A stretch of 64,000 nt of DNA from the human T2T-CHM13v2.0 reference genome, Homo sapiens, in the NCBI RefSeq assembly GCF_009914755.1, contig NC_060925.1; one strand, 5' to 3'. The notes under the pieces were generated by a model that saw nothing but the letters and a program-made list of their open reading frames with translations, ran no database searches and was not told the DNA's origin. A program made the translations under genes and the position numbers. This document shows positions 2,568-6,094 of this stretch, one piece after another (the first letter of the stretch is position 1; each line of letters starts with the position of its first letter).

Positions 2568-4416
2568 CTCGATGGCAGAGGGTCAGCTCCCTTCCTGCTC
2601 CAGGAAACCAAGGGAAGACACTTCCCAGGTTTTAAGCCCCTCTTGAAATCCCTGTGCTTCTATAACTAGCTTTGTGGAGATATATTTTTGTGTTATTCCA
2701 GTATACTAAGGAGCTTTGACATCTGTTTGACTTTTGTTGCACAGATAATTTCTATTAATATCAAATAAATAATTGTGTTATACTTTAATTTCCCCTTTTT
2801 AGATGTAGTACACTCCACTATTTATGCTAAATAAATATACTAGATATGTATGTTGAATGCACTAACAAAATAATTACTTGTCCTTATAACCAACTTTTAA
2901 TAACTGCAAAAAAAAACAAGGAAATAAATATTGATTCTTCTACATTTTCTTTCTATGGGCTTATAATTATGTTACTCTCTTGATATTTAATTTATTCCCT
3001 TCAGTAATCTGGCCGGAAACTAGTATCAAAGACATCACGGCAGTGTTTTAAAATTGTGTCCTCAAGACCACACTGGCAGCATCTGGAAATTTATCTATTT
3101 TGAATCTTCATCAAGTATGCCAGAATTAAATTTAAAGCAGGGAGATACTTTTTCAAATAGCATTGATTTTTTAAAAAGACAAAATAGAGTTTTAATTTAA
3201 ACCAAATTCTAAAGCTGGCTCTGGGAACATGATAAGTAATTTTAATTGGTTTCTTACCATTTTGACTAAAACAAATACATTTTAGCTACAGCTTGTAGTA
3301 AACTTTTTTTTTGTGATTCATGCTACTATAAATCCTTAAAAAAATATAACTTCGACTTTCCAGAGAGACATTTTCTTTTATACACCGCTAAATTTTAACA
3401 TGATTGAAATACCTGTACCTAGCTAAATCTATTTTTCTATTCATTGTGATTCTTAATTTTACAATTGCATGAAAACTAAAACGCTTCTTTATTTTCCTTA
3501 TTGGTAGCATAATTTAGTTTTATTTTACTTAAAAAAAGTGAAATGCATCTATTCTGTATTATATAGTAGCTCAATTGACCTTGCAAATCTCTTTTATCCA
3601 AAAATGAACTATTTTTACATATGCTTTGTGAAAATGGATATTCTTCATTAGTAAAATTAATCACAAAAGTGCATTAACACAATAACAAACTTGACCTGAT
3701 TTTTAGAAATATGGGATACTTCTGAGTAAACGTCCCAAAAAATGGGAGTCAATTGAACATGCTCACCTTCTTGGCAAGCATTTTGATAATACAATTTTCT
3801 CCTTTTCTCTGTTCAAAGCTCCACTTCTCTTGCTATTAAATTATACTTTTGGCTCACTGAAGTGTTTATGACTCAGGATTACTTTAAGTGAATCTGTCTT
3901 CACTAGCATGCGTTTTAAATATAGAGAGTTTCAGTGGTAGAAAACAGTCAAATCAAGAGTTTCAAATATAAATTATTAATTCTATCTTTTTACAACCTAC
4001 TGCTTTTCCTCTTGAGTCCTCGATGGCTTCATGAGTGATAACGTAGTCATATATCTAAGTGTACTAGTCTAGAATAAATGCTACATTTATTTAAGATTTC
4101 TAAATACATAATGAATAAGGACAGAAAAAGTAATTCTTAGCTTTTCAGTATTCAAGTGTGTAATAACCAGCTTTTGTTCACTTGAAACGACAGCGTATTA
4201 TTTCCCGAAGAAAAAGAGTATTTCTTTGATACGTTTTATCATCGTAGGGTTTTAAATGTCAACTAGAAATTTATACATCTTAATTCAATAATTGCAAACC
4301 TACATTTATATTTTAATTATTATATTATTGATATTTTTACTAAAATTATATGTATAATGGCTTGTTTCAAAATGAATTCTGCTTCGGAACCATAAAGTTA
4401 GTTAAAATTTTAACTA

Positions 4417-4590
4417 GTCTCTACAAAAAAATACAAAAATTAGCCGGGCGTGGTGGTGGGTGCCTGCAATCCCAGCCACCCGGGGGGCCGGGGCCCGAGA
4501 AGCGCCAGAACCCAGGAGGCGGAGGCCGCAGCCAGCCGAGATGGCATCACCGCACTCCAGCCCGGGTGAGAAAGCGAGACTCCTGTCTTG

Positions 4591-4618
<28 letters not shown>
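4417..4618 (+). mobile_element. Alu right arm plus A-tail in the inverted 5' segment of the retrocopy (T-to-C rich)
   Basis: GTCTCTAC...ATACAAAAATTAGCCGGGCG to A-tail; about 10 T-to-C vs 2 A-to-G against AluS consensus by manual alignment. Confidence 0.85.
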
Positions 4619-4621
<3 letters not shown>

Positions 4622-4757
4622 CGAGCGTGGTGGTTCACGCCTGCAATCCCAGCACTTTATGGGCACCGTGGAGCACGCTCGCAGTCCCAGCTGCTTGGGA
4701 GGCAGAGGCAGCGGTGAGCCAAGACTGCGCCATTGCACTCCATCCTGGGCAACAAAG
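4619..4757 (+). mobile_element. Internally deleted Alu remnant in the inverted segment
   Basis: Left-arm start (GTGGTTCACGCCTGCAATCCCAGCACTTT) jumps to right-arm pieces ending CTGGGCAACAAAG. Confidence 0.75.
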
Positions 4758-4872
4758 TAGAGATGGTTTTGCGGTGTTGGCTGAGCTGGTCTCGAACCCT
4801 GATCACGGGTGATCTGCCTGCCTCTGCCTCACAGAGTGCTGGGATTGTGGGCGTGAACCACTGCGCCCGGCC
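4756..4872 (-). mobile_element. Alu left arm (antisense in the transcript), A-to-G edited
   Basis: AGTAGAGATGG...CAGAGTGCTGGGATTGTGGGCGTG...GCCCGGCC; consensus ATTACAGG reads ATTGTGGG and CAAAGT reads CAGAGT. Confidence 0.85.
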
Positions 4873-4880
4873 TTGTGTGA

Positions 4881-5147
<267 letters not shown>

Positions 5148-5159
5148 TTGTGTGATTTT

Positions 5160-5236
5160 ATCTAAGGGACTTAAGCATCCTCAGGTCCTAGAGGGTCGTG
5201 AAACCAAAACCCCATAGATAGCAAGGGACAATTGTA
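5160..5236 (+). mobile_element. MER2 (TcMar-Tigger) terminal fragment carried in the retrocopy
   Basis: AGGGACTTAAGCATCCTC...GGTCGTGAAACCAAAACCCCATAGATAGCAAGGGACAATTG-TA; similar to the end of the MER2 at 13431-13758. Confidence 0.65.
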
Positions 5237-5256
5237 TCTTCAAATTAGACAAATGG

Positions 5257-5560
5257 TGCCGGGCACGGTGGCTCGCGCCTGTAGTCCCAGCACTTTCGGA
5301 GGCTGAGGCGGGCGGATCGCCTGGGGTTGAGAGTTGGAGGCCACCCTGGCCAACATGATGAAACCCTGTCTCTACAGAAATGTAGGGATAGCTGGGCGTG
5401 GTGGCGCATGCCTGTGGTCCCGGCTACTGGAGCGGCTGGGGCGGGAGAGTCGCTTGAGCCTGGCGGGCGGAAGTTGCGGTGGGCGGGGATGGCACCACCG
5501 TGCTCCGGCCTAGGTGATAGAGTGAGACTCCGTCTCAAAAACAAAACAAAACAAAACAAA
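5257..5560 (+). mobile_element. Full-length AluS, A-to-G hyperedited
   Basis: Dimeric Alu with (CAAAA)n tail; TSD AAATTAGACAAATG (5242-5255) / AAATTAGACGAATG (5560-5573); about 23 A-to-G against consensus. Confidence 0.95.
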
Positions 5561-6094
5561 AATTAGACGAATGCTACATTAATTGTTTGGGTGGTCAGAT
5601 TCTACTTTGAAGTCTGAAGTTTGCAGATACGCCTATAGATTTTTGGAGTTTACCACTTTTATTCTGTATCATTAATGTAATATTTTAAATTATTGTATAT
5701 TTTACCATTTCTCTGGATTTAGTAAGAAATTTGCAGTTTTGATTTGATGTAACAAAGGTTTTAATGTAATTTATGTTAGATTTTGCATTTTTTTCATTAC
5801 TGTTATACTTTTACCTGACTGAATGACTGATCTCTTTGTATTAGTATTGGGAATAATCATGTGAAATGTTTTGAGGCAGAGTACTATATTTGTGAACATA
5901 ATTTTATGACTTTTTTCGCTTAGTAAGAACCTTTCTATCAGTGTGGAAAACTAAGAAAATTGCTTTCTGCTGTATAATCTGGCATTCATTGTAGATTAAA
6001 GCTTATTTTTCTGTGAATAAAACTTATTCAATAAAATACTATTCTTTAAAATTAAAAAAAATTAAGTAGTCTCTTGGAAGGATACTGACTAGTC

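What the first reader, a model, noticed from the sequence alone, without database searches (positions are those of the whole stretch)
4404..4872. Twin-priming 5' inversion flips the editing signature and reconstitutes one antisense Alu
Seen: 4417-4590 shows about 10 T-to-C against 2 A-to-G, whereas sequence from 4758 onward shows A-to-G. The reverse complement of the insert's left end reads ...GGCTAATTTTTGTATTTTTTTGTAGAGAC, and the non-inverted part starts GTAGAGATGG at 4757, so flipping 4417-4757 yields one contiguous antisense Alu. The TSD end GTCTCT is complementary to AGAGAC at that point. Established: twin priming places the internal priming site next to the 5' TSD with microhomology. Inference: in the rebuilt RNA the dominant change is A-to-G throughout, and this antisense Alu lay ~110 nt from the sense Alu at 5257, forming an ideal ADAR hairpin.
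Basis: partly seen in the sequence, partly recalled or inferred. Interest (0 to 1): 0.85.

Follow-up and report, generated by a model that had tools for sequence, protein, structure and literature searches.

The report
Ancient RNA edits frozen in DNA
This stretch of human chromosome 1 is a partly back-to-front DNA copy of the tail of the XIAP messenger RNA, and its one-sided A-to-G changes, which swap strands at the flip point, likely preserve ADAR edits made to one RNA molecule in an ancestor's germ line, roughly estimated at 10-25 million years ago.

Summary
Confirmed and extended. Window 4404-6074 is an unannotated, 5'-inverted processed pseudogene of the XIAP 3' UTR, with a 19-nt target-site duplication at a TT/AAAA site; an unedited AluY entered later. 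Read in mRNA sense, the XIAP-derived Alus carry 41 of 115 A>G against 2 of 114 T>C; non-Alu parts 4 of 176 against 5 of 235. On the + strand the skew flips at the inversion (A>G:T>C 2:14 inverted, 27:0 not). Of 45 changes, 37 lie in the predicted Alu-Alu duplex, 5' G is avoided, and changed sites overlap sites edited in XIAP today (19 of 27 against 15 of 45). Two other XIAP retrocopies carry overlapping A>G clusters; a third does not. Best reading: L1 twin priming on an ADAR-hyperedited mRNA, fixed in the germ line. One correction: the flipped piece holds one and a half Alus, and human XIAP lacks that Alu arm today. Twin priming is textbook, and edited de novo pseudogenes were seen in cultured cells (3 of 235). 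I found no paper on fixed germline examples. Ape genomes and reads could not be checked.

The parts
4404..4422 (+). Left target-site duplication (19 nt), starting at a TT/AAAA L1-endonuclease-type site; its 3' end is the inferred second primer
   Evidence: matches 6056-6074 at 16 of 19 bases (the last 13 at 12 of 13)
4423..4590 (-). Inverted segment, part 1: linker and right arm of 'Alu B' (antisense in the mRNA); 10 A>G in mRNA sense. This arm is absent from human XIAP today
   Evidence: shares 7 of 23 non-consensus states with the chr12 retrocopy, at most 3 with any of 38 background Alus
4591..4618 (-). A28 tract: poly(T) in the mRNA, the tail of Alu B
4619..4756 (-). Inverted segment, part 2: remnant of 'Alu A' of the XIAP 3' UTR, with a 32-nt deletion shared with XIAP and a private deletion of about 91 nt at 4659/4660; 4 polarised A>G
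4756..4758 (.). Inversion junction: 3-nt exact microhomology, extended imperfectly for about 10 nt
4757..4872 (+). Non-inverted left arm of Alu B (antisense Alu); 5 of 16 A>G, 0 of 20 T>C
4881..5147 (-). 5'-truncated AluY-like element inserted later (subfamily name recalled, from no call); 12-nt TSD at 4873-4884 and 5148-5159; no editing skew
   Evidence: absent from XIAP and the chr12 and chr1:45 Mb copies; 10 of 243 differences from the majority of its 9 nearest relatives, none A>G or T>C
5148..5256 (+). 109-nt spacer, the loop of the hairpin; 0 of 33 A>G
5257..5540 (+). 'Alu C' (sense), partner of Alu B; 22 of 56 polarised A>G, 0 of 39 T>C
5561..6053 (+). Unique end of the XIAP 3' UTR with poly(A) signals; 96% identical to XIAP, no skew (4 of 143 A>G, 5 of 208 T>C)
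6054..6074 (+). Short A-run (8 A, merging with the TSD) and right target-site duplication 6056-6074

Best explanation
The insert is a 5'-inverted copy of the last 1.4 kb of the XIAP 3' UTR, likely made by L1 twin priming on an mRNA that ADAR had likely already hyperedited in its Alu B-Alu C hairpin, and its A>G skew switches strand at the inversion. Shown: parent, TSD, orientation of each block, the substitution spectrum and its flip. Inferred steps: (1) in a germ cell or early embryo Alu B paired with Alu C over about 250 bp and ADAR converted about 36% of the Alu adenosines to inosine; (2) L1 ORF2p nicked at TT/AAAA and copied from the poly(A) tail through Alu C, the spacer and the left arm of Alu B, writing C opposite inosine; (3) because the cDNA held Alu C, Alu B was freed, and the second nick's 3' end annealed at the Alu B arm boundary and copied 334 nt the other way; (4) the two cDNA ends joined through a short microhomology; (5) an AluY inserted afterwards. 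The copy is most likely inert: a record, not a functional element.
For: Parent is XIAP: RING exon upstream, block alignment. Spectrum in mRNA sense: 41 of 115 A>G against 2 of 114 T>C in Alus, p=4e-12; 4 of 176 against 5 of 235 outside. Outside CpG-forming contexts 25 of 78 against 2 of 77. Flip 2:14 against 27:0, p=1.5e-9. Fold: 37 of 96 duplex adenosines changed against 8 of 190 outside; 4 of those 8 lie in Alu A, which pairs with an upstream XIAP Alu when that is included. 5' G depleted, 7 of 41 against 29 of 72, p=0.012, the ADAR pattern in PMC4365171. All 68 published XIAP editing sites that I tested land on A at one offset; changed sites are listed more often than unchanged, 19 of 27 against 15 of 45, p=0.003; none is listed in the spacer or beyond Alu C. 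chr12 (26 of 65) and chr1:45 Mb (12 of 65) copies show A>G in Alu C with shared sites; chrX:147 Mb shows 1 of 29. XIAP 3' UTR inverted Alus are a known ADAR1 target (PMC5520689).
Against: 3' G enrichment is not significant (21 of 41 against 25 of 72, p=0.11). The Alu B right arm has no counterpart in human XIAP, so its 10 changes are polarised on a consensus only; 3 are shared with chr12 and could be old XIAP substitutions. A transversion-only test did not place chr12 among the 10 closest of 47 Alus to that arm. Overlap with today's sites is not significant for chr12 (p=0.13) or chr1:45 Mb (p=0.054) in Alu C alone, and the published list is a filtered subset. The RNA bases at the priming site are inferred from three diverged copies. 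No ape orthologue or read data were available.
Confidence: 0.88

Rival explanations
1. The G-rich state has one shared source, either an ancestral G-rich XIAP allele or one edited retrocopy that was transcribed and spawned the others, so the shared sites are inherited and not recurrent edits.
For: Shared A>G sites exceed chance: 19 against 10.8 expected with chr12, 10 against 4.8 with chr1:45 Mb.
Against: XIAP Alu C matches the consensus (0 of 58 A>G); chrX:147 Mb shares old indels with these copies yet has A at the shared sites it covers; the window shares states with XIAP that chr12 and chr1:45 Mb lack (L025 positions 8548, 8568, 8660, 8692); the shared sites are those edited in XIAP now (8 of 10 sites with G in all three copies are listed, against 16 of 45 with G in none).
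Confidence: 0.06
2. The editing is real but the inversion is not twin priming: a later DNA inversion, or a separate sense Alu with an A28 tail inserted at the 5' end.
For: 4423-4618 looks like a truncated Alu with a pure tail; it is missing from human XIAP; the transversion-only test did not single out chr12.
Against: The inverted block starts exactly at the TSD end; no TSD flanks 4423-4618; its T>C skew on the Alu-sense strand cannot come from editing of a free Alu RNA; it resumes at consensus position 120 where the left arm stops at 118; it shares 7 of 23 non-consensus states with chr12 against at most 3.
Confidence: 0.04
3. DNA-level processes (CpG decay in the parent, GC-biased gene conversion, transcription-linked asymmetry) or assembly error made the pattern.
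For: 16 of 41 changes form a CpG; the changes run from A/T to G/C.
Against: Sites were polarised on XIAP plus consensus; the skew holds outside CpG contexts; it is one-stranded, flips at the junction, and is absent from the spacer, the unique UTR and the AluY lying between the edited Alus; other weak-to-strong classes total 2 T>C, 1 A>C, 1 T>G. The changes span 1.1 kb and recur at two other loci.
Confidence: 0.02

Closest known systems
5'-inverted processed pseudogenes and L1 copies made by twin priming (Ostertag and Kazazian 2001, seen only as cited; Cooke 2014 PMC3996531, passages; Kojima 2010 PMC2912911, passages)
   Same: TSD, TT/AAAA site, one internal inversion next to the 5' TSD, microhomology at the priming site and at the junction.
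   Different: The template was heavily edited; Cooke et al. state they saw no base substitutions in their somatic pseudogenes and inferred no editing. The priming match here is longer than their 1-3 bp.
De novo pseudogene insertions with ADAR clusters in L1-induced cells (PMC11702581, preprint version 1, passages)
   Same: Clustered substitutions confined to 3' UTR inverted Alus, read as ADAR editing; 3 of 235 insertions.
   Different: Those are new insertions in cultured cells. This one is in the reference genome, old, has two edited sister copies, and has an inversion that serves as an internal strand control. The later version of that preprint gave no hit for 'ADAR'; its Fig. S8 was not seen.
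ADAR1 editing of the XIAP 3' UTR inverted Alus (PMC5520689, passages and legends; site lists in supplements of PMC5758889 and PMC4742137)
   Same: Same transcript, same Alus, overlapping sites, none in the spacer.
   Different: The fossil records a full Alu B-Alu C duplex; present XIAP lacks the Alu B right arm and is predicted to pair differently.
APOBEC3-edited retroelements in genomes (Carmi 2011, recalled; not held)
   Same: Deaminase footprint fixed in the genome by reverse transcription.
   Different: There G>A from cDNA editing of retroelements; here A>G from RNA editing of a host mRNA.

Membership tests
L1-mediated processed pseudogene | Target-site duplication of about 7-20 nt | tested here: met
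   4404-4422 and 6056-6074, 16 of 19 identical
L1-mediated processed pseudogene | Endonuclease site TT/AAAA | tested here: met
   4402-4407
L1-mediated processed pseudogene | Ends at the parent's poly(A) site with an A tail | tested here: met
   Homology stops about 19 nt after a poly(A) signal, where other copies also stop; tail only 8 A, merging with the TSD
L1-mediated processed pseudogene | Loss of introns | not testable with these tools
   The copy lies wholly within XIAP's last exon
Twin-primed 5' inversion | Inverted block abuts the 5' TSD and is upstream RNA sequence | tested here: met
Twin-primed 5' inversion | TSD 3' end complementary to the RNA at the inversion point | tested here: met
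   7 matches, one G:T, one match against the inferred RNA; present XIAP differs at one base, so the RNA is inferred
Twin-primed 5' inversion | Microhomology and only a small gain or loss at the junction | tested here: met
   3 nt exact at 4756-4758; consensus positions 118 and 120 adjoin
ADAR-hyperedited template | Clustered A>G on the RNA strand only | tested here: met
   41 of 115 against 2 of 114; flips with the inversion
ADAR-hyperedited template | Confined to long double-stranded RNA | tested here: met
   37 of 96 against 8 of 190 in the predicted fold
ADAR-hyperedited template | 5' neighbour G depleted | tested here: met
   7 of 41 against 29 of 72, p=0.012
ADAR-hyperedited template | 3' neighbour G enriched | tested here: inconclusive
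   21 of 41 against 25 of 72, p=0.11
ADAR-hyperedited template | Inosine in the RNA, dependence on ADAR | not testable with these tools
   The template molecule no longer exists; present XIAP editing is ADAR1-dependent (PMC5520689)

The most novel reading that the evidence does not exclude
Retrocopies form a readable archive of single edited germline mRNA molecules. Three of four XIAP copies that cover Alu C are edited, at the sites ADAR prefers today, so site choice has held for tens of millions of years, hyperedited mRNAs do reach the L1 machinery in the germ line, and RNA edits are inherited through DNA often enough to be mined genome-wide as an ancient editome.
Probability: 0.55. Interest if true: 0.75.

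Novelty: new variant of a known kind. Interest (0 to 1): 0.6.

Why it matters
It is a clean case of RNA edits written into heritable human DNA, with a built-in control: the inversion shows that the changes came before reverse transcription. It makes three questions testable: how much editing germline mRNAs carried in ancestral primates, whether ADAR site choice is stable over long times, and whether hyperedited mRNAs escape nuclear retention into L1 particles. It also preserves a lost form of the XIAP 3' UTR hairpin, and warns that such copies look older than they are. The locus itself is probably without function.

Tried and rejected
(1) Editing opened the internal priming site: rejected; the site stays paired (P=0.98) with edits modelled as A, G or unpairable, and local edit density (5 per 20 bp) is not the maximum. 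Only the neighbouring linker loosens (0.83 to 0.41). (2) The 91-nt deletion in Alu A as a spliced intron: no fitting acceptor by eye. (3) Transversion-only identity to tie the inverted arm to chr12: uninformative; shared non-consensus states were used. (4) Position 4520 and the two apparent AluY A>G changes are CpG errors of my consensus; 4520 was dropped. (5) Rfam gave only Alu-derived matches below gathering scores. (6) A genome search with the inverted block found only generic Alus at 84% or less among 40 of 5441 candidates scored. (7) No primate relatives are held, so orthologues were not checked. (8) Nine literature searches ran; none listed a paper on fixed germline ADAR-edited retrocopies or on this locus. 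Subscription papers, including Carmi 2011, and preprint supplements were not visible and could bear on novelty.

Full report
What the insert is. The unique sequence at 5560-6060 has five other long matches in the genome. One of them, on contig 23, lies 6.8 kb downstream of an exon whose translation matches the XIAP RING domain over all 64 residues, so the parent is the XIAP 3' UTR. The insert is bounded by 4404-4422 and 6056-6074, identical at 16 of 19 bases, and starts at TT/AAAA. It ends where other copies end, just after a poly(A) signal. No gene is annotated in the window.

Anatomy. Against XIAP, 4756-4884 and 5148-6054 are collinear, while 4605-4658 and 4660-4769 match the opposite strand. 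Flipped, the 5' block reads: remnant of Alu A, poly(T), right arm of Alu B; the left arm of Alu B follows at 4757. The arms cover consensus positions 120-281 and 0-118. Human XIAP lacks the Alu B right arm and its tail, about 177 nt by the spacing in the window, and joins Alu A to Alu B within a short shared motif. The chr12 copy is a different A/B chimaera. Among the six sequences compared, only the window keeps both Alus; I infer two separate deletions between tandem Alus. The inverted arm shares 7 of 23 non-consensus states with chr12 and at most 3 with any of 38 other Alus, though a transversion-only test did not single chr12 out. The element at 4881-5147 has its own 12-nt TSD and is absent from the parent and sister copies.

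Twin priming. The inverted block starts exactly at the TSD end. The junction has a 3-nt exact microhomology at 4756-4758. These are the features given for twin priming in PMC2912911 and PMC3996531 (passages). The priming site is paired in the folded RNA whether or not edits are modelled, so access most likely came from first-strand synthesis taking up Alu C; this step is inferred.

The signature. Ancestral bases were called where XIAP and a consensus of 38 unrelated Alus agree; the Alu B right arm has the consensus only, the non-Alu parts XIAP only. After dropping 4520, a CpG error in my consensus, the Alus show 41 of 115 A>G and 2 of 114 T>C in mRNA sense; spacer plus unique UTR show 4 of 176 and 5 of 235. 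On the + strand A>G:T>C is 2:14 in the inverted block and 27:0 outside it (p=1.5e-9). Outside CpG-forming contexts the counts are 25 of 78 and 2 of 77. Background Alus peak at 12-13%. The AluY, lying between the edited Alus, has none of either change among 10 differences from its 9 nearest relatives. A DNA-level process acting after insertion would not flip at the junction or skip the AluY.

Structure and motif. The rebuilt RNA folds Alu B onto Alu C with 245 pairs plus the tails; 37 of 96 duplex adenosines are changed against 8 of 190 outside, with the same counts whether the edits are reverted or not. Four of the 8 lie in Alu A, which pairs with an upstream XIAP Alu when that is added. G is depleted 5' of changed sites (7 of 41 against 29 of 72, p=0.012); 3' G enrichment is not significant (p=0.11). 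The expected ADAR pattern is from PMC4365171 (passages).

Match to editing today. PMC5758889 Table S18 lists 124 XIAP rows (all rows seen); I used the 68 that fall in Alu A, B and C. All 68 land on A at a single offset. Polarised changed sites are listed in 19 of 27 cases, unchanged ones in 15 of 45 (p=0.003), and listing rises with the number of copies carrying G (16/45, 10/18, 9/14, 8/10; trend p=0.003). No listed site lies in the spacer or beyond Alu C. The table is filtered for miRNA-site gain and cancer difference, so unlisted does not mean unedited. Of the 7 lung sites from PMC4742137 (supplement 2) that fall in the aligned region, 4 are G in the window. ADAR1 editing of XIAP's inverted Alus is published (PMC5520689, passages and legends).

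Sister copies. In Alu C, A>G against XIAP (not polarised) is 28 of 67 in the window, 26 of 65 on chr12, 12 of 65 at chr1:45 Mb and 1 of 29 at chrX:147 Mb, with one T>C each; the chr2 copy does not reach the Alu. Shared sites exceed chance. Common descent from one G-rich source is unlikely: chrX:147 Mb shares old indels with these copies but has A, and the window shares four states with XIAP that chr12 and chr1:45 Mb lack. The copies have different 5' ends and flanks.

Age. The window has 11 private substitutions in 478 unique bases. With assumed rates of 1.0-1.5e-9 per site per year (recalled) this gives point estimates of 10-23 million years, limits 4-41. This is rough and has no outgroup.

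Novelty. Twin-primed pseudogenes are well known. Cooke et al. saw no edits in their somatic pseudogenes. A preprint reports 3 of 235 new pseudogene insertions in L1-induced cells with ADAR-type clusters in 3' UTR inverted Alus (PMC11702581, passage), so the process is known. PMC5199112 discusses 3' UTR Alus in processed pseudogenes with no hit for editing, ADAR or XIAP. Ten searches listed nothing on fixed germline examples or this locus; subscription papers and preprint supplements were not visible. Other papers seen as passages only: PMC5224506, PMC12350158, PMC4598827, PMC12548423, 10.1101/2024.12.14.628481.

Verdict. Observation confirmed, interpretation supported. A new variant of a known kind: an old, reference-genome retrocopy of a hyperedited mRNA with an internal strand control and edited sister copies. 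Confidence 0.88, interest 0.6.

Noticed in passing
L026:1320-3325 (G000:C12 about 126.603-126.605 Mb, - strand): A second heavily edited XIAP retrocopy with a 12-nt TSD: 20 of 58 A>G in Alu C and 10 of 41 in the upstream sense Alu against consensus, an Alu A/B chimaera, and a short insert in its poly(T) that looks like an L1 3' end (label recalled). Its 5' part was not resolved.
   Followed up: partly
L027:7493-8496 (G000:C1 about 45.05 Mb): Third XIAP retrocopy, 5'-truncated, not inverted, moderately edited (12 of 65 A>G in Alu C).
   Followed up: partly
L028:8126-8753 and L029:8235-8755: Two shorter XIAP 3' UTR copies; the chrX:147 Mb one covers half of Alu C and shows no editing; the chr2 one is closest to present XIAP (13 of 466 differences).
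   Followed up: partly
L025:7800-7870 (XIAP 3' UTR): Human XIAP lacks the right arm and tail of Alu B that the window copy keeps; likely a deletion between tandem Alus that reshaped the edited hairpin. Timing unknown.
   Followed up: partly
G000 contigs 13, 14, 15, 21, 22 (near contig starts) and contigs 1, 2, 4, 19, 20: The last 250 nt of the XIAP 3' UTR match at 82-87% in many places, on contigs 15, 21 and 22 at about 6-7 kb spacing: perhaps an old truncated retrocopy amplified inside a tandem repeat of the acrocentric arms.
   Followed up: no
window 4417-5540: 65 CpGs, observed/expected 0.71, 57% GC over 1.1 kb, which meets common CpG-island thresholds (recalled). Alu C has 21 CpGs against 10 in XIAP's copy; 16 of 41 edits formed a CpG. 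Methylation unknown.
   Followed up: no
window 4659/4660: Private deletion of about 91 nt in Alu A relative to XIAP (L025:7717-7807); a template jump during copying or a later loss, not resolved.
   Followed up: partly
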